A stretch of DNA of 59,783 bases from a virus (lineage: Duplodnaviria > Caudoviricetes). The position numbers and the translations under genes were made by a program. Shown here in pieces: positions 18,228-21,962 of this stretch. Where the stretch lies: the IMG/VR virus record IMGVR_UViG_3300027902_000011, positions 1 through 59,783 of that record; one strand, written 5' to 3'. The stretch's first letter is position 1. Each line of letters opens with the position of its first letter. A model generated the notes under the pieces. It worked only from the letters and a program-made list of their open reading frames with translations. It was not told the DNA's origin and did no database searches.

Positions 18228-18306
18228 TGGAGCCCTCCGTGGGACTCGAACCCACATTCTCCAGTTACGGTTCCAAAGTTTAGGAAACTCGGCCGATTAG
18301 GAGGGC
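18228..18306 (-). tRNA. tRNA-Arg(CCU), D-arm absent, expanded variable region
   Basis: Perfect acceptor and T stems; loop TTCCTAA; CCGTAACTGGA after the anticodon arm. Confidence 0.75.
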
Positions 18307-18313
18307 ATGAAGT

Positions 18314-18396
18314 TGGTGCACGTCGCAGGACTCGAACCCGCATTTTCAGATCCAGTTACGGATAGTCGTTTAGAAGACGACCTCGTCTAGACGTGC
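18314..18396 (-). tRNA. tRNA-Arg(UCU), D-arm absent, expanded variable region
   Basis: Perfect acceptor and anticodon stems; loop CTTCTAA; CCGTAACTGGATCTGAAAAT insert. Confidence 0.8.
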
Positions 18397-18879
18397 TTGT
18401 TTACAGTTATCGAAATGGTATCGGTGCATATTCGGGCCTCGTCCTTCTTTTAGACAAAAAGGACAAGTATACTTGATCAAGTTATGATGAGTTCCATCAT
18501 CAAGTCGTCTCTGAGCTGTCTTACGTTGAATCTCACCACCCAAGAAAGGGTGTATTTCTTCAACAACTTGTTTTCTATTGTTTTCTTTGCCCAAGAATGG
18601 ATGAGTTCCTTTAGCAACCCGCTTATGGTTTTCCAGACTTGCTAACTCTGAAATGACTTGAGGAGACAATTTCATTCTTTGAGCTATTCTATAACAGGCG
18701 GCATAGTCGCCCTGCTCTAGATGGATCTCATAGTGATTCTGGATAGTCGTCGCCAACAGGTTCTCAATCCGGTTGTTGGTCTTGTCGCCGTCTTTGTGGT
18801 GAATCTCATAGGCACGACCATCCGCTTCCCGTGGGATGGGACCGTAGTGCTGCTCATAGATTTTTCTATAAATATGCAT
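18370..18879 (-). CDS. HNH homing endonuclease
   Basis: YEIHHKDGDKTNNRIENL and C-terminal CPFC..HFDNC; stop codon lies inside tRNA-Arg(UCU). Confidence 0.88.
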   Translation of the reverse strand: MHIYRKIYEQHYGPIPREADGRAYEIHHKDGDKTNNRIENLLATTIQNHYEIHLEQGDYAACYRIAQRMKLSPQVISELASLENHKRVAKGTHPFLGKENNRKQVVEEIHPFLGGEIQRKTAQRRLDDGTHHNLIKYTCPFCLKEGRGPNMHRYHFDNCKQARLDEVVF

Positions 18880-18941
18880 GCTGGCCTCCGTCAAGGTTAG
18901 AGCCGGTGGGTCTGATCACCGTGACCGGCGTTCTATTTATA
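18877..18941 (-). promoter_or_regulatory. Late promoter plus conserved endonuclease leader, copy 3
   Basis: TATAAATAGAAC GCCGGT CAC GGT GATCAG ACC C ACCGGC TCTAACCTTGACGGAGGCCAGC ATG. Confidence 0.8.
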
Positions 18942-18954
18942 GACCTAGATTTAT

Positions 18955-19030
18955 TGGAGCACCAGGCGAGACTCGAACTCGCATATAACAGCTTTGCAGG
19001 CTGCCCCGTGACCTCTCCGGGCACTGGCGC
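18955..19030 (-). tRNA. tRNA-Cys(GCA)
   Basis: Loop CTGCAAA, U73, CCA. Confidence 0.88.
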
Positions 19031-19035
19031 GTGAT

Positions 19036-19106
19036 TGGCTACGGACACCGGACTCGAACCGATCTCGTCAGCTTCAGAGGCTGACTTCCCGCCTTGGGTA
19101 TCCGCA
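19036..19106 (-). tRNA. tRNA-Gln(CUG), short D-arm
   Basis: U1-A72, G73, loop CTCTGAA. Confidence 0.87.
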
Positions 19107-19110
19107 GTGA

Positions 19111-19326
19111 TTACTCTACGTCGAAGAAGTGAAAGGCGCCGGCGCCGATCATCGCGATCGCGCCGCCGTGCGGCCACTGGTACAGGCGGTTCGTGACCAT
19201 CCCGTCCGCGTCTGACCATGCCTCCAGAGACTCGTGCTCGTCGCGAGTGATCGAGCGACGACCGTAGACCATCTCCATCGTCATCTCGTGGGAGGCGCGC
19301 TGCTCCTCGGGTCCCATCTCAGCCAT
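19111..19326 (-). CDS. Small hypothetical protein within the tRNA array
   Basis: AGGAG RBS, GC3-rich codons. Confidence 0.55.
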   Translation of the reverse strand: MAEMGPEEQRASHEMTMEMVYGRRSITRDEHESLEAWSDADGMVTNRLYQWPHGGAIAMIGAGAFHFFDVE

Positions 19327-19339
19327 CTTCTTCTCCTGT

Positions 19340-19415
19340 TGGTCTCCGCACGGTGTTCTGCCCACCGACCTCCTGCTTCCAAGGCAGGTACTCTTCTAGC
19401 ACGAGCTTTGCAGAG
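19340..19415 (-). tRNA. tRNA-Pro(UGG), non-canonical D and T loops
   Basis: C1-G72, A73, loop CTTGGAA; T-loop GGCAGAA. Confidence 0.82.
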
Positions 19416-19420
19416 TTGAA

Positions 19421-19479
19421 TGGCACCCCGGAACTTTTGTGCAGCTGAGCCATCCTACGATGACTTACTTAGCCGGGGT
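19421..19479 (-). ncRNA. 59-nt CCA-terminated tRNA-like mini RNA
   Basis: 7-bp ACCCCGG/CCGGGGT stem plus G-CCA; internal 7-bp hairpin with GTAG tetraloop. Confidence 0.6.
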
Positions 19480-19488
19480 TGTTTCGAA

Positions 19489-19564
19489 TGGAGGTTCCAC
19501 CCCGACTCGAACGGGGAACTCGACCTTCGCAGGGTCGTGATTTATCCAGTTAAACTATGGAACC
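19489..19564 (-). tRNA. tRNA-Arg(GCG)
   Basis: Canonical cloverleaf, D-loop AACTGGATA, loop CTGCGAA. Confidence 0.88.
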
Positions 19565-19569
19565 GTGAT

Positions 19570-19644
19570 TGGCAGGGCCTACGGGAATCGAACCCGTCTT
19601 GCTCGGTTGAGAACCGAGTTTCCTAGCCGATAGAAGAAGGCCCC
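19570..19644 (-). tRNA. tRNA-Glu(CUC)
   Basis: Loop TTCTCAA, G73, CCA. Confidence 0.9.
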
Positions 19645-19649
19645 TTGAT

Positions 19650-19726
19650 TGGCTCCAGCGGCTGGTTCCGACCCAGCATCGACATGAGTTAACAGCTCAC
19701 CGTCCTTACCATTTGACTACGCTGGA
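19650..19726 (-). tRNA. tRNA-Asn(GUU)
   Basis: U1-A72, G73, loop CTGTTAA; T-loop GTCGGAA. Confidence 0.85.
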
Positions 19727-19734
19727 ATGAAAGT

Positions 19735-20546: not shown

Positions 20547-20620
20547 TGGTTGCGCAGCTACGAGTTACACGTAGGTCCTAAGTTTATGAGACTTAGATGG
20601 GGTTCCTCCACTACCGCGCC
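20547..20620 (-). tRNA. tRNA with CAU anticodon and G1.A72 mismatch (initiator-like Met?)
   Basis: Loop CTCATAA; T-loop TGTAACT; lacks the three G-C pairs of tRNA-fMet. Confidence 0.72.
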
Positions 20621-20628
20621 GTAAGAAT

Positions 20629-20751
20629 TGGTTGGCGAGTTGCACGCCCACGGTTTTACATCCGAACTCATGCTATTAGATTTATGCGAGCAGTAATAGG
20701 AATGAATACCTATCTCTTGGGCCGCTGGTCGCGCCGGCCCGACTGTTGCTC
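20629..20751 (-). ncRNA. Candidate multi-hairpin ncRNA ending in a T-arm-like hairpin and CCA
   Basis: Follows overlapping TTGACA and TATAAATA promoters; several stems; 3' GGCG-TGCAACT-CGCC-AA-CCA. Confidence 0.5.
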
Positions 20752-20788
20752 TATTTATATCACCTCGACGATAAGTTGTCAAGGGAAT

Positions 20789-20877
20789 TGGCGGAGGGCC
20801 CGAGAATCGAACTCGATACCGTCTGGTACGTCCTGTTTTCGAGGCAGGCGCGAGGGGCCACCCCGCTTGTACCCTCC
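20789..20877 (-). tRNA. tRNA-Ser(CGA)
   Basis: Long variable arm, G73, loop CTCGAAA. Confidence 0.87.
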
Positions 20878-20966
20878 TGGCGGAAGACTGTGGTCTTGAT
20901 CCACAAGCACTCGCGCGCTCGTGACGCTTTCCAGGCGTACCTGCCCTCCCGAGCAGTTAGTCTTCC
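20878..20966 (-). tRNA. tRNA-Ser(GGA)
   Basis: Long variable arm, loop CTGGAAA; T-loop ATCAAGA. Confidence 0.85.
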
Positions 20967-20970
20967 TTAT

Positions 20971-21058
20971 TGGCGGATGCCAGGCTGTGTCGATCACCAT
21001 ACCGTGAGGTACCTGCCGGGTTCAAACCGGAGACGGGAGCCGTCCCGCGTTGGCATCC
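20971..21058 (-). tRNA. tRNA-Ser(UGA)
   Basis: Long variable arm, loop TTTGAAC; imperfect T-stem. Confidence 0.8.
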
Positions 21059-21063
21059 TTGAA

Positions 21064-21147
21064 TGGAGGTCCCAGCAGGATTCGAACCCGCGTTTTCAGC
21101 TCCAGCTACGGTTTACGACGTTCGAAGCGTCGTTCGGCTATGGGACC
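21064..21147 (-). tRNA. tRNA-Arg(UCG), D-arm absent, expanded variable region
   Basis: Perfect acceptor and anticodon stems; loop CTTCGAA; CCGTAGCTGGAGCTGAAAAC insert. Confidence 0.8.
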
Positions 21148-21148
21148 G

Positions 21149-21517
21149 TTATTGCTCGCCGTCTCGCTTGGAGCGGCTGTGGTAGAACTTAGACATCGTG
21201 ACCTTCTGGATCAGACGGTCGTCCTTGAGGATCGAGGGACCCTTCAGCGACTTGCCGTCGATCGCCATGAACGTCGCCTCCAGCAGGTGGTCGAGGTCGG
21301 GCGAAGACGGATTGACGTAGAGGACCTCTAGGTCTATCGGATAGTCGATCGGCAGGTCTGTCTGTGCAGAGATGGATCGACGAGCTGAGTCGAGTATGTC
21401 CTCGCGGTACTGCTGAAGCGCCCGCCGGTGCATCCGCTTGTGCGGAGCGTGGTGCAGGTTGAGCTTGAGTACCGGCGGGAACGCGCTGTCGTCCAGCCTT
21501 ACGAAGTAGCCTCTCAT
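21149..21517 (-). CDS. RusA-like resolvase family protein
   Basis: PDLDHLLEATFMAIDG..ILKDDRLI matches the RusA acidic motif spacing, with substitutions. Confidence 0.6.
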   Translation of the reverse strand: MRGYFVRLDDSAFPPVLKLNLHHAPHKRMHRRALQQYREDILDSARRSISAQTDLPIDYPIDLEVLYVNPSSPDLDHLLEATFMAIDGKSLKGPSILKDDRLIQKVTMSKFYHSRSKRDGEQ

Positions 21518-21536
21518 AACGTCCTCATAGTGTGAT

Positions 21537-21626
21537 TGGTCCGCCGTATAGGTAACGATCCTATCCGAGAAGGCTTATCTGGCCCAACTGCTTATAAGAC
21601 AGTCCTGCTCACCTGAGCTACAGCGG
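21537..21626 (-). tRNA. tRNA-Ile(UAU)-like with long variable region
   Basis: CCGCTGT/ACGGCGG-A-CCA; loop CTTATAA; T-loop ATCGTTA. Confidence 0.7.
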
Positions 21627-21631
21627 TTTAT

Positions 21632-21707
21632 TGGTCAGGGTGCGGTGTTCTGCCCACCGTCCACTTCCTTCCGAGGGAAGTAATCTTCTAACACGATATT
21701 CACCCTG
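21632..21707 (-). tRNA. tRNA-Pro(CGG), non-canonical D and T loops
   Basis: C1-G72, A73, loop CTCGGAA; T-loop GGCAGAA. Confidence 0.82.
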
Positions 21708-21712
21708 TCGAT

Positions 21713-21787
21713 TGGCGCTTCGTAGGGGAGTTGAACCCCTCTCAGCCGGTTGACAACCGGACCGCCACACCCGCAGCGTCACGAAGC
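21713..21787 (-). tRNA. tRNA-Asp(GUC)
   Basis: Loop TTGTCAA, G73, CCA. Confidence 0.87.
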
Positions 21788-21793
21788 TTGTAT

Positions 21794-21876
21794 TGGTGTC
21801 CGACGTGGGACTCGAACCCACAAAAACCCGGCTTCTCAGGCCGTCAGGTGTGCCATTTTCCATAGGTCAGTCGGAC
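21794..21876 (-). tRNA. tRNA-Leu(GAG), short variable loop, enlarged D region
   Basis: Loop CTGAGAA, A73, canonical T-arm. Confidence 0.8.
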
Positions 21877-21881
21877 GTTTT

Positions 21882-21962
21882 TGGTGTGCCAGGTGGGGAT
21901 CGAACCCACATTTTCAACCTATTACCTTACTCGAGATTAAGAGTCACGGAGGTTACTGGCGC
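21882..21962 (-). tRNA. tRNA-Lys(CUU), D-arm absent, expanded variable region
   Basis: Loop CTCTTAA; insert ending GGTTGAAAAT; canonical T-arm; CCA. Confidence 0.72.

What the first reader, a model, noticed from the sequence alone, without database searches (positions are those of the whole stretch)
18228..21962. Four tRNAs with the D-loop apparently moved to the 3' side of the anticodon arm
Seen: Arg(CCU) 18228-18306, Arg(UCU) 18314-18396, Arg(UCG) 21064-21147 and Lys(CUU) 21882-21962 keep acceptor, anticodon and T arms. They have only 7-9 nt where the D-arm belongs and a 20-24-nt insert in the variable region. The three Arg inserts share CCGT-A(A/G)CTGGA, the same AACTGGA found in the D-loop of the canonical Arg(GCG) tRNA here; it includes G18G19 and the ArgRS identity base A20. 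The 5' linker pairs with the end of the insert with covariation in three of the four: TAGC/GCTG, TAGA/TCTG, TAAC/GTTG, each followed by AAAA(C/T). Inference: this is a selected alternative tRNA topology rather than decay.
Basis: partly seen in the sequence, partly recalled or inferred. Interest (0 to 1): 0.87.

Follow-up and report, generated by a model that had tools for sequence, protein, structure and literature searches.

The report
Phage tRNAs with a relocated D-loop
Four transfer RNA genes in this phage belong to a large, overlooked family of phage arginine and isoleucine tRNAs. In this family the D-arm has been rewired to the far side of the anticodon arm while keeping its usual three-dimensional contacts, a natural non-cloverleaf tRNA outside mitochondria.

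Summary
On the minus strand, Arg(CCU) 18228-18306, Arg(UCU) 18314-18396, Arg(UCG) 21064-21147 and Lys(CUU) 21882-21962 have normal acceptor, anticodon and T arms. Only 7-8 nt lie where the D-arm belongs, and a 19-24-nt insert follows the anticodon arm.

They are not isolated oddities. A motif scan of IMG/VR and a covariance model recovered 137 distinct relatives (Arg 100, Ile 35, Lys 1, CAU 1). They lie in phage tRNA arrays, including cultured Vibrio and Microbacterium phages where they are unannotated.

Two helices between the 5' linker and the insert covary strongly. An 8-nt bulge between them carries the D-loop motif UAR..GG.

Canonical tertiary signatures persist:
- The R15/Y48 equivalents are A/U or G/C in 135 of 136 members.
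- The base after GG is A in 98 of 100 Arg members but 7 of 35 Ile members.
- All 35 Ile members have A73.
- The two members with U56 have GA instead of GG.

ARAGORN of 137, none with the right anticodon. Nine full-text searches found no description.

Best reading: functional elongator tRNAs with a permuted D-arm, charged by host synthetases. Expression and charging are untested.

The parts
18314..18396 (-). tRNA-Arg(UCU), family member, 83 nt with CCA. Acceptor 18390-18396 / 18318-18324. H1 5' strand 18386-18389 (TAGA). H2 5' strand 18383-18385 (CGA). Anticodon arm 18365-18381, anticodon 18372-18374. H2 3' strand 18359-18361 (CCG). D-loop-like bulge 18351-18358 (TAACTGGA). H1 3' strand 18347-18350 (TCTG). 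Connector 18342-18346 (AAAAT). T arm 18325-18341. Discriminator A 18317. CCA 18314-18316.
   Evidence: Coordinates checked. 93.6 bits with model R2, third best of 126 hits. First row of gapless alignment A3.
21064..21147 (-). tRNA-Arg(UCG), family member, 84 nt with CCA. Acceptor 21141-21147 / 21068-21074. H1 5' strand 21137-21140 (TAGC). H2 5' strand 21134-21136 (CGA). Anticodon arm 21116-21132, anticodon 21123-21125. H2 3' strand 21109-21111 (CCG). Bulge 21101-21108 (TAGCTGGA). H1 3' strand 21097-21100 (GCTG). Connector 21092-21096 (AAAAC). T arm 21075-21091. Discriminator T 21067.
   Evidence: 80.5 bits. R15/Y48 equivalents are G/C here, against A/T in the other three.
18228..18306 (-). tRNA-Arg(CCU), short-connector subtype, 79 nt with CCA. 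Acceptor 18300-18306 / 18232-18238. Linker 18292-18299 (TAATCGGC) with H2 5' strand 18293-18295 (CGG). Anticodon arm 18275-18291, anticodon 18282-18284. H2 3' strand 18268-18270 (CCG). Bulge 18260-18267 (TAACTGGA). Connector 18256-18259 (GAAT), with no H1 3' strand. T arm 18239-18255.
   Evidence: 55.7 bits. 6 of the 8 CCU members found, from 8 different contigs, have similarly short connectors.
21882..21962 (-). tRNA-Lys(CUU)-like family member, 81 nt with CCA. Acceptor 21956-21962 / 21886-21892 (C2.A71 mismatch). Linker 21949-21955 (TAACCTC). Anticodon arm 21932-21948 (U.U mismatch), anticodon 21939-21941. GG partner of linker CC 21925-21926. Bulge 21918-21924 (TAATAGG). H1 3' strand 21915-21917 (TTG). 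Connector 21910-21914 (AAAAT). T arm 21893-21909. Discriminator A 21885.
   Evidence: the single-sequence MFE already forms the linker/insert helix; 53.5 bits. It is the only CUU anticodon among 137 members. It has the same linker and GGTTGAAAAT tail as the Ile(GAU) member in L112.
19489..19564 (-). Canonical tRNA-Arg(GCG) of the same array. Its ordinary 5' D-loop holds the same AACTGGA motif. It serves as the comparator.
   Evidence: (53.9 bits with Rfam tRNA).

Best explanation
The four genes are members of a widespread, phage-borne family of elongator tRNAs, mainly Arg and Ile, whose core is rewired.

**Secondary structure.** There is no D stem-loop after position 9. Instead the 7-8-nt 5' linker (U8 A9 N N C G R ..) runs straight into the anticodon stem and acts as a splint. 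Its distal part (helix H2, 3 bp) pairs with the 3 nt that follow the anticodon arm. Its proximal part (helix H1, U8.G, A9-U plus 1-2 covarying pairs) pairs with the 3-4 nt that precede an A-rich connector (AAAAY) leading to the T stem. Between the two 3' strands sits a 7-8-nt bulge, U-A-R-(N1-3)-G-G-(A), which is the D-loop in a new place.

**Inferred three-dimensional logic.**
- H2 plus the anticodon stem reproduce the D-stem/anticodon-stem coaxial stack with the strand order circularly permuted.
- The bulge still supplies A14 (to U8), R15 (Levitt pair with Y48, the last connector base), G18 and G19 (to the T-loop), and in Arg members A20 for ArgRS.
- An L-shaped molecule with normal acceptor/T and anticodon ends is therefore kept.

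**Inferred function.**
- The genes are transcribed within the tRNA array and processed like their neighbours.
- They are charged by the host ArgRS, IleRS or LysRS through the anticodon, A20 and A73.
- They read AGA/AGG, CGA/CGG and AAG codons, which this phage uses heavily.
- The family probably spread among phages from one ancestor. It changed specificity by single anticodon changes (UCU to UAU, CCU to CUU), with matching changes at A20 and position 73.

Why the rewired core is kept is open. It could be evasion of host or phage tRNA-directed nucleases, or simple inheritance.

**Shown:** the secondary structure, its covariation, the conserved tertiary signatures and the distribution. **Inferred:** the three-dimensional fold, processing, charging and decoding.
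For: **Family size**
- Of 109 sites, 88 unique sequences parsed as this architecture and 21 did not.
- Model R2 gave 126 + 40 hits at E<=1e-6 over the window plus 139 loci. These made 146 unique sequences, of which 137 were kept.

**Helices, tested without fitting**
- Fixed offsets, Arg members with an 8-nt linker (n=32):
  - Position 10 paired in 32 of 32 with 3 pair types (shuffled mean 21.9; 0 of 2000 shuffles as high).
  - Position 11 paired in 29 of 32 with 4 types.
  - Position 13 paired in 32 of 32 with 4 types.
  - Position 14 paired in 23 of 32.
- Ile members with a 7-nt linker (n=29):
  - Position 10 paired in 26 of 29 with 4 types, across a one-base bulge.
  - Position 12 paired in 29 of 29 with 3 types.
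- Gapless alignment A3 (24 sequences):
  - 96.0% of cells are paired, against 67.0% when shuffled.
  - The covariation score is 0.797 against 0.205 (0 of 500 shuffles as high).
  - Slid registers give 40-48% paired.
- RNAalifold predicts the same helices de novo.

**Tertiary signatures**
- The R15/Y48 equivalents are A/T in 103, G/C in 32 and G/T in 1 of 136 members. The shuffled mean is 86.6, and 0 of 5000 shuffles reach 135. Both states occur within Arg (89 and 9) and within Ile (12 and 23).
- The two members whose T-loop has U56 (L103:9475-9554 and L242) have GA instead of GG. All members with C56 have GG.

**Identity elements**
- The base after GG is A in 98 of 100 Arg members against 7 of 35 Ile members.
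- The discriminator is A in 35 of 35 Ile members. In Arg members it is T 41, A 29, G 26, C 4.
- Position 33 is U in 136 of 137 members. Position 37 is A in 135 and G in 2.

**Context**
- Members lie in dense tRNA arrays.
- In the window they abut neighbouring tRNAs with gaps of 0-9 nt and encode CCA.
- In 10 recognised phage genes, CGA+CGG+AGA+AGG make up 124 of 241 Arg codons, and AAG makes up 296 of 329 Lys codons.
Against: - **No expression or charging data.** No sequencing run could be listed, so nothing bears on RNA.
- **Geometry unsolved.** If H1 and H2 stack coaxially, only one base (A20) links G19 to the H1 strand. That is hard to fit to a canonical elbow, so the fold may differ from an L.
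- **Invariant pairs.** U8.G, A9-U and C12-G never vary and so say nothing about pairing. Part of that invariance was imposed by the search pattern, although TG is still present in 122 of 137 members, counting those the model found without the pattern.
- **Shuffle controls.** They ignore relatedness. The A19:U56 case is probably one evolutionary event, because both members share the same T arm.
- **Weak members.** Arg(CCU) lacks H1, and Lys(CUU) has two stem mismatches and no CUU relative. Either of these two could be decaying.
- **Closest relatives.** The five related phage records searched, chosen by major capsid protein (up to 73% identity), hold no member. The window's members are therefore not simply inherited with the T4-like backbone.
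Confidence: 0.75

Rival explanations
1. Decaying pseudo-tRNAs: copies in a redundant phage array that lost the D-arm and gained junk after the anticodon arm.
For: - ARAGORN misses all four, and three of the four are below Rfam's tRNA gathering score.
- Arg(CCU) lacks the H1 3' strand and has a C.U mismatch in the anticodon stem.
- Lys(CUU) has C2.A71 and U.U mismatches and is the only CUU member.
- The array also holds other odd tRNA-like genes.
Against: - The same architecture recurs in 137 distinct sequences from many unrelated phage contigs.
- Compensatory changes occur in all five helices, and the 15:48 tertiary pair is kept in 135 of 136 members.
- Arg(UCU) and Arg(UCG) score among the best members (93.6 and 80.5 bits).
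- The short connector of Arg(CCU) recurs in 6 of 8 CCU members from different contigs.

Decay remains possible only for Arg(CCU) or Lys(CUU) individually.
Confidence: 0.04
2. tRNA-like RNAs that are made but not used for decoding. Examples would be decoys for host anticodon nucleases or tRNA-modifying toxins, or regulatory or primer RNAs.
For: - The altered core could make them poor ribosome or EF-Tu substrates.
- Phage tRNAs are known to interact with tRNA-targeting defences (PMC10264068 and PMC11464382, seen only in the search listing and abstract).
- Nothing here shows charging.
Against: - Class-specific conservation of aminoacylation identity elements is what charging requires. A in the A20 position is found in 98 of 100 Arg members against 7 of 35 Ile members, and A73 in 35 of 35 Ile members. 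A decoy would not need these.
- The members keep a canonical 12-bp acceptor/T branch, U33 and a purine at 37.
- In several phages all the Arg tRNA genes found are of this type. L109 has four and L105 three.
- The codons they read are common in this phage.
Confidence: 0.12
3. Ordinary cloverleaf tRNAs that have been misread. The hairpin taken as the anticodon arm would really be a large D-arm, and the anticodon would lie in the CCG/TAA region, as ARAGORN reads the Vibrio phage PG07 copy, Arg(ccg).
For: ARAGORN calls the PG07 member tRNA-Arg with anticodon ccg at position 36.
Against: - The CCG triplet covaries with the 5' linker (CGG/CCG, CCG/CGG, CAC/GTG, CCC/GGG, CGT/ACG, AAA/TTT). It is therefore a helix strand, not an anticodon.
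- That reading would put a pyrimidine at position 37 and leave a poorly paired stem.
- The 7-nt loops CUUCUAA, CUACGAA, CUUAUAC and CUGAUAA are canonical and are closed by covarying 5-bp stems.
- ARAGORN's five calls among 137 members give five different, unrelated answers.
Confidence: 0.01
4. Precursors that are rearranged after transcription into a normal cloverleaf, as permuted or split tRNA genes are.
For: The order of elements equals a circular permutation of the D-arm/anticodon-arm module.
Against: - The acceptor strands are already at the two ends, with CCA encoded.
- No bulge-helix-bulge or intron-like motif was seen.
- The linker pairs with both flanks of the bulge, which no cut-and-join would turn into a 4-bp D stem.
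- H1 and H2 are under selection as they stand.
Confidence: 0.02

Closest known systems
Canonical bacterial and phage tRNA-Arg and tRNA-Ile (Rfam RF00005)
   Same: - 7-bp acceptor, 5-bp T stem with a TTCGA-type loop, and a 5-bp anticodon stem with a 7-nt loop carrying U33 and a purine at 37.
- U8, A14-like and G18G19-like bases.
- R15:Y48 covariation.
- A20 in Arg members and A73 in Ile members.
- Location in tRNA arrays, with CCA often encoded.
   Different: - There is no D stem-loop between positions 9 and 26.
- The D-loop sits 3' of the anticodon arm as a bulge between two helices, both formed with the 5' linker.
- The variable region does not start at the anticodon stem.
- The core is a three-way rather than a four-way junction.
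D-armless mitochondrial tRNAs, such as mammalian mt-tRNA-Ser(AGY) (passages of PMC11551756; PMC9427863 seen in the listing only)
   Same: No 5' D stem-loop, and a short connector between the acceptor and anticodon stems. Recalled, not tested: connector bases are thought to extend the anticodon helix.
   Different: - The mitochondrial forms have lost the D-loop/T-loop contact, have degenerate T-loops and use co-evolved organellar machinery.
- The phage family keeps a D-loop-like element, a canonical T-loop and the Levitt pair.
- The phage family must work with unadapted bacterial cytosolic enzymes and ribosomes.
Engineered D-armless 'mini HisT' in E. coli (PMC11551756, passages read)
   Same: It shows that bacterial HisRS, EF-Tu and ribosomes can accept a tRNA without a D-arm. 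This makes function of the phage family plausible.
   Different: It is artificial, 62 nt long, with positions 11-25 simply deleted. It is predicted to be Y-shaped and needed a pnp mutation to persist. The phage family is natural, 73-84 nt without CCA, and relocates the D-loop rather than deleting it.
allo-tRNAs and (8/4) or (9/3) tRNAs (PMC5389517, abstract and passages)
   Same: Non-standard tRNA structures found in metagenomes, some of them in phage tRNA clusters.
   Different: Those change the acceptor/T-stem split but keep the four-arm cloverleaf. Here the 7/5 branch is standard and the D-arm is rewired.
Circularly permuted tRNA genes of the red alga Cyanidioschyzon merolae (recalled, not looked up)
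   Same: The order of tRNA elements is permuted in the gene.
   Different: There the whole gene is permuted and is restored by processing. Here only the D-arm/anticodon module is permuted, and the mature RNA is expected to stay permuted.

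Membership tests
Canonical cloverleaf tRNA (Rfam RF00005; ARAGORN model) | 7-bp acceptor stem with discriminator and 3' CCA site | tested here: met
   All four genes; Lys(CUU) has one C.A mismatch. Across A3 the acceptor pairs are 98.8% paired, and all 7 show changes on both sides.
Canonical cloverleaf tRNA (Rfam RF00005; ARAGORN model) | D stem-loop (3-4 bp plus a loop with G18G19) between positions 10 and 25, 5' of the anticodon arm | tested here: not met
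   Only 7-8 nt lie between the acceptor and anticodon stems. Rfam's alignment replaces the 15 D-arm positions with 5 nt.
Canonical cloverleaf tRNA (Rfam RF00005; ARAGORN model) | Anticodon arm: 5-bp stem, 7-nt loop, U33, purine at 37 | tested here: met
   All four genes. In the family, U33 is present in 136 of 137 members and position 37 is A in 135 and G in 2. All 5 stem pairs covary.
Canonical cloverleaf tRNA (Rfam RF00005; ARAGORN model) | T arm: 5-bp stem and a T-loop of TTCRA type | tested here: met
   All four genes. In the family, 134 of 137 T-loops begin TTC. The search pattern fixed this for about 87 of them.
Canonical cloverleaf tRNA (Rfam RF00005; ARAGORN model) | Detection above the tools' own thresholds | tested here: not met
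   - ARAGORN finds 0 of the 4 window genes. Across the family it of 137, none with the right anticodon.
- Rfam's gathering score is reached by 1 of the 4.
- In 15 loci holding 33 members, only 2 members appear among the 150 listed gathering-score matches. Eleven lower-scoring matches were not shown.
Canonical cloverleaf tRNA (tertiary core) | Levitt pair R15:Y48 (G:C or A:U), G19:C56, U8 and A14 | tested here: met
   - The equivalents of 15 and 48 are A/T or G/C in 135 of 136 members.
- GG changes to GA only in the two members with U56.
- The TA at positions 8-9 and the TA that opens the bulge are in all 137 members.
- The three-dimensional contacts themselves were not observed.
Class II tRNA (long variable arm) | The extra nucleotides after the anticodon arm form their own stem-loop | tested here: not met
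   The insert pairs with the 5' linker instead. A local hairpin is predicted only for Arg(UCG) folded alone, and relatives do not conserve it.
D-armless mitochondrial-type tRNA | Loss of the D-arm together with loss of the D-loop/T-loop interaction; organellar location | tested here: not met
   A D-loop-like bulge with GG and a canonical T-loop are kept. The carriers are tailed phages of bacteria.
Arginine-accepting tRNA (ArgRS substrate) | C35 with U36 or G36, and A20 in the D-loop (identity set recalled from the E. coli literature) | tested here: met
   - Sequence features only.
- The three Arg genes have C35 with U or G at 36, and A after GG.
- In the family, A follows GG in 98 of 100 Arg members.
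- Aminoacylation itself is not testable with these tools.
Permuted or split tRNA gene needing rearrangement | Acceptor halves internal to the gene, with a processing motif at the junction | tested here: not met
   The acceptor strands are at the termini and CCA is encoded.

The most novel reading that the evidence does not exclude
This is a previously undescribed, phage-specific class of tRNA with a three-way-junction, non-cloverleaf secondary structure (a circularly permuted D-arm). Ordinary bacterial synthetases would charge it and bacterial ribosomes would use it. If so, it would be the first natural departure from the cloverleaf outside mitochondria. It is common enough that Arg and Ile tRNA genes are systematically missing from phage annotations. 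A bolder extension is that the rewired core is kept because it lets phage Arg and Ile tRNAs escape host, or phage-induced, tRNA-directed nucleases or modifying toxins that recognise the canonical D-arm and variable-loop core.
Probability: 0.45. Interest if true: 0.93.

Novelty: new variant of a known kind. Interest (0 to 1): 0.88.

Why it matters
A 2024 paper states that all known bacterial tRNAs are cloverleaves and that natural armless tRNAs exist only in mitochondria (PMC11551756, passages read). If these RNAs are charged and decode, that statement no longer holds.

They would then show that the tRNA core tolerates a strand permutation. The permutation keeps U8/A14, R15:Y48, G18G19/T-loop and A20 while changing the backbone path. 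That would be a natural experiment on what synthetases, EF-Tu, RNase P and the ribosome really require.

Practical consequences:
- **Annotation.** Standard finders miss the family or misname it. ARAGORN gets 0 of 137 right, and 13 of 13 annotated cultured-phage records carry no tRNA feature at the site. Phage tRNA inventories, codon-compensation analyses and tRNA-based host or lifestyle inferences therefore undercount Arg and Ile tRNAs.
- **Engineering.** The scaffold may be a ready-made, structurally distinct chassis for orthogonal tRNAs.
- **Phage-host conflict.** It offers a testable link to tRNA-targeting anti-phage defence.

Tried and rejected
**Searches that led nowhere**
- Exact-motif scans of IMG/VR built from the window's own Arg inserts found nothing or only chance hits. 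CCGTARCTGGANNNNGAAAAYGYGGGTTCGA gave 0 loci. CTGGANNNNRAAAAYNNGGGTTCRA gave 4 loci, none tRNA-like.
- Megablast of the array against cultured phages gave no match.
- Model R1 on five related phage records (major capsid protein up to 73% identity) found only ordinary tRNAs, best 40.2 bits. R2 on the arrays of four of them gave no hit at E<=1e-6. A hand scan of those arrays showed other odd tRNAs, but not this type.
- Sequencing runs: none was listed and no RNA holder was listed.

**Ideas considered and rejected**
- A local mini-hairpin AGCU-GG-AGCU in Arg(UCG). Relatives do not conserve it.
- ARAGORN's ccg reading. See the rival explanations.
- A class II variable arm.
- A link between the array's ORFs and tRNA biology. 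They are HNH and GIY-YIG/NUMOD3 homing endonucleases.

**Literature**
- Nine full-text searches found no description of this architecture, nor of phage RNase P RNA among the rows listed.
- Passages of PMC5389517, PMC11551756, PMC6409571 and PMC8421152 were read and also describe neither.
- The library lacks most subscription journals, and supplements were closed. This is 'not found', not 'not in print'.

**Sequences dropped before the counts**
- 21 of 109 pattern sites that did not parse. Some are chance hits or ordinary tRNAs, and a few are members with acceptor mismatches.
- 9 of 146 unique model hits: acceptor with fewer than 6 pairs, anticodon stem with fewer than 4 pairs, or ordinary tRNAs.
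- One member without GG was left out of the 15:48 table.

**Not used:** the metagenome-contig scan, protein searches and structure tools.

Full report
**What the window is.** The 59.8-kb record is a fragment of a T4-like phage. It encodes gp43-type DNA polymerase, UvsX, the gp46/47-like SbcCD pair, DnaB-like and other helicases, a scaffold protein and a gp23-like major head protein. The closest cultured relative by head protein is Stenotrophomonas phage DLP6, at 68% identity. The closest IMG/VR contigs reach about 73%.

Between about 17.6 and 25.3 kb the minus strand carries a dense tRNA array:
- ARAGORN finds 26 tRNAs.
- Reading the gaps shows several more that it misses.
- Rfam finds a class A RNase P RNA at 22970-23249 (170.9 bits).
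- The ORFs scattered through the array are HNH and GIY-YIG/NUMOD3 homing endonucleases.

**The observation.**
- Each has a 7-bp acceptor stem, discriminator, encoded CCA, a 5-bp anticodon stem with a canonical 7-nt loop (U33, A37), and a 5-bp T stem with a TTCGA-type loop.
- Only 8, 8, 8 and 7 nt lie between the acceptor and anticodon stems.
- 19, 23, 24 and 22 nt lie between the anticodon stem and the T stem.
- The three Arg inserts hold CCG-TA(A/G)CTGGA. The canonical Arg(GCG) tRNA of the same array has AACTGGA in its normal D-loop.
- Rfam's tRNA model aligns Arg(UCG) with the D-arm deleted and a 21-nt insertion after the anticodon arm.
- ARAGORN calls none of the four. Only Arg(UCG) reaches Rfam's tRNA gathering score.
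- A covariance model built from the four separates them cleanly from every other tRNA in the window, 82.8-93.2 against at most 37.6 bits.

**Finding relatives.**
- Motifs taken from the window's own Arg inserts found nothing real in IMG/VR.
- The nearest phage relatives have large arrays but no member.
Most of these showed the same architecture. Of 109 sites, 88 unique sequences parsed and 21 did not.
- A second pattern that left the four bases before AAAAY free returned 19 loci. All were already in the set, and all had TG as the last two of the four.
- A second model (R2) was built from a gapless 24-sequence alignment with the proposed structure. It was run over the window and all fetched loci, and found 126 + 40 hits at E<=1e-6. 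After removing duplicates and 9 weak or ordinary hits, 137 distinct members remain. About 50 of them do not match the seeding pattern.
- Many contigs carry several members: 17 have two, 8 have three and 2 have four, the window being one of the two.

**The structure.** After the acceptor stem come the invariant U8 and A9. Then follow 1-2 variable bases, then three bases (usually C-G-R), then one base and the anticodon arm. After the anticodon arm come 2-4 bases, then three bases complementary to the C-G-R triplet (helix H2). Next is a bulge U-A-R-(N1-3)-G-G-(N). Then come 1-2 bases complementary to positions 10-11, plus U-G opposite A9 and U8 (helix H1). A five-base A-rich connector ending in a pyrimidine leads to the T stem.

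I tested this without any fitting, using fixed offsets from the acceptor stem, from the connector and from the TA of the bulge.
- The pairing matrices show the expected anti-diagonals and nothing else.
- Permutation of partners never reached the observed pairing at the variable positions. For example, in Arg members with 8-nt linkers, position 10 pairs in 32 of 32 with GC, AU and CG, against a shuffled mean of 21.9. Position 13 pairs in 32 of 32 with four pair types.
- In Ile members the third H1 pair forms across a one-base bulge and still covaries: CG 15, UG 7, GC 2, UA 2 of 29.

On the gapless alignment:
- 96.0% of cells are paired, against 67.0% after shuffling.
- Every slid register gives 40-48% paired.
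- The covariation score is 0.797 against 0.205.
- RNAalifold, given no structure, predicts H1 and two pairs of H2.

Caveats:
- U8.G, A9-U and C12-G never vary and so prove nothing.
- Shuffles ignore relatedness.
- The seeding pattern fixed TG, AAAAY and the first part of the T arm for about 87 members. Among all 137, TG is present in 122 and the connector varies (AAAAT 79, AAAAC 30, others 28).

**The relocated loop does the D-loop's jobs.**
- **Levitt pair.** The third base of the bulge (A or G) and the last base of the connector (U or C) match as A/U (103) or G/C (32) in 135 of 136 members. The shuffled mean is 86.6, and 0 of 5000 shuffles are as high. Both states occur inside the Arg group (89 and 9) and inside the Ile group (12 and 23). 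This is the pattern of the R15:Y48 Levitt pair of ordinary tRNAs (textbook knowledge, recalled). In the window, Arg(UCG) is G/C and the other three are A/U.
- **G19:C56.** GG is present in every member whose T-loop has C56. The only two members with U56 have GA. One came from the model search and one from a separate scan for TTTGA T-loops, in which it was the only member among 17 loci. This is what a G19:C56 pair predicts, although the two share a T arm and probably represent one event.
- **Identity elements.** The base after GG is A in 98 of 100 Arg members but in only 7 of 35 Ile members. The discriminator is A in all 35 Ile members but mixed in Arg members. A20 for ArgRS and A73 for IleRS are the recalled E. 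coli identity elements.
- **U8 and A9.** They stay invariant even in CCU members that have lost the UG partner. This fits their usual tertiary roles.

Read together, H2 plus the anticodon stem look like the D-stem/anticodon-stem stack with the order of strands circularly permuted. H1 then ties the two new connectors together. This is inference. I could not reconcile a coaxial H1-H2 stack with only one base between G19 and H1, so the true fold needs experiment.

**The four window genes within the family.**
- **Arg(UCU) and Arg(UCG)** are textbook members (93.6 and 80.5 bits).
- **Arg(CCU)** lacks the H1 3' strand. However, 6 of the 8 CCU members, from 8 different contigs, have similarly short connectors, and one is almost identical in that region. 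A scan for short connectors with the Arg motif found only variants that keep TG. The short form is therefore a CCU-subtype trait rather than a private lesion. Its anticodon stem does have one mismatch.
- **Lys(CUU)** is the only CUU member.
  - Its linker and tail match an Ile(GAU) subtype (L112), and its acceptor 5' strand matches an Arg(ACG) member in a Hoeflea MAG contig.
  - It has A73 and no A after GG, as a non-Arg member should.
  - It carries C2.A71 and U.U mismatches.
  - It may be a recent specificity switch or a decaying copy.

The codons concerned are far from rare in this phage. In ten recognised genes, CGA 43, CGG 22, AGA 23 and AGG 36 make up 124 of 241 Arg codons. AAG makes up 296 of 329 Lys codons.

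**Distribution and annotation.**
- **Anticodons among the 137:** UCU 50, UCG 27, GAU 18, UAU 17, ACG 11, CCU 8, GCG 4, CUU 1, CAU 1.
- **Carriers.** They are mostly large phage contigs.
- **Cultured phages.** A BLAST search with one member hit 17 records. They are twelve Vibrio phages (several of them T5-like Demerecviridae), Microbacterium phages Pumpernickel and Zooman, and partial hits in a Maribacter and a Pseudomonas phage. None has a tRNA feature there: 11 have nothing, 2 have a hypothetical protein, and 4 records are unannotated. I read the Pumpernickel and PG07 copies and both are clear members.
- **ARAGORN and Rfam.** ARAGORN calls the PG07 copy but names the H2 strand CCG as its anticodon. 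Over all 137 members it, none correctly. In 15 loci holding 33 members, only 2 members appear among the 150 listed matches that reach Rfam's gathering score.
- **Cellular genomes.** In one genome per species for 185,579 prokaryotic species, a strict pattern found 11 loci. Seven are members, all inside dense tRNA arrays and mostly on MAG contigs. The family is therefore a phage or mobile-array trait, not part of cellular tRNA sets.

**Comparison with what is known.** It works like an ordinary elongator tRNA in every testable sequence feature, but it fails the defining cloverleaf feature, a 5' D stem-loop.
- It differs from D-armless mitochondrial tRNAs and from the engineered mini HisT by keeping the D-loop and its contacts.
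- It differs from allo-tRNAs by keeping the 7/5 branch.
- It differs from permuted algal tRNA genes by not needing rearrangement.
- A 2024 paper states that all known bacterial tRNAs are cloverleaves and that natural armless tRNAs occur only in mitochondria (PMC11551756).
- Nine searches of the held library found no description of this family. The library is incomplete and supplements were closed.

**Verdict.** The real object is larger than the finding: a widespread, covariation-supported, phage-borne tRNA family with a permuted D-arm. That it is a selected structure is close to certain. That it is charged and decodes is likely but untested. Why the rewiring is kept is unknown.

Noticed in passing
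window 22970-23249 (-): A bacterial class A RNase P RNA gene sits inside the phage tRNA array (170.9 bits, gathering score 100; 280 nt spanning the whole 367-position model, so it is reduced). A like gene scores 148.7 bits in the 185-kb viral record behind L109, which also holds four family members. A weak one (63.5 bits) lies in the record behind L021. Three other records had none. One literature search listed nothing on phage RNase P RNA.
   Followed up: partly
window about 18138-18227, 17902-17972, 20789-20877, 20971-21058, 21716-21787 (all -): Further tRNA genes that ARAGORN misses, read by eye and partly seen by Rfam below or near threshold: Ser(GCU), Gln(UUG), Ser(CGA), Ser(UGA) and Asp(GUC). 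The array probably holds about 40 tRNA genes.
   Followed up: partly
window about 21632-21707 (-) and 19340-19416 (-): Two tRNA-Pro-like genes (anticodons CGG and UGG) have good acceptor and anticodon arms. Both share the sequence GGTGGGCAGAACACCG, which gives a T arm whose loop is GGCAGAA instead of TTCRA. Read by eye.
   Followed up: no
window 21537-21626 (-); also L095 3748-3839, L096 661-755, L098 3041-3136: A 90-96-nt 'tRNA-Ile(tat)' called by ARAGORN recurs in the window and in three related phage records. The window copy has an ordinary D-arm, an insert of about 22 nt after the anticodon arm, and a T-loop reading ATCGTTA. It is a different oddity from the family described here.
   Followed up: no
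window 23811-24220 (-) and the relatives' arrays: All Leu tRNAs called here and in the related records are only 77-79 nt. This is too short for the usual long variable arm of bacterial tRNA-Leu.
   Followed up: no
L096 2172-2239 (record behind L021): A 68-nt Arg(CCU)-like gene in a related phage has a 13-nt D-replacement stretch containing TGGA at the normal 5' position and only 4 nt before the T stem. It is another reduced design, and ARAGORN does not call it.
   Followed up: no
L217 1183-2079 (Escherichia phage EscoHU1, NC_133119): T5-like coliphages and Salmonella phages have an unannotated stretch of about 900 nt next to tRNA-Arg. It contains a partial match to the insert plus T arm of the family (CCGTAACTGG ... 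GGTTCGAATCC) without a recognisable acceptor stem. It could be a relic, or part of a larger RNA.
   Followed up: no
L223 1867-1947 (MAG contig JAJFLM010000305.1): ARAGORN calls a suppressor-type tRNA with anticodon tta, which would read UAA, in one of the tRNA arrays that carries a family member.
   Followed up: no
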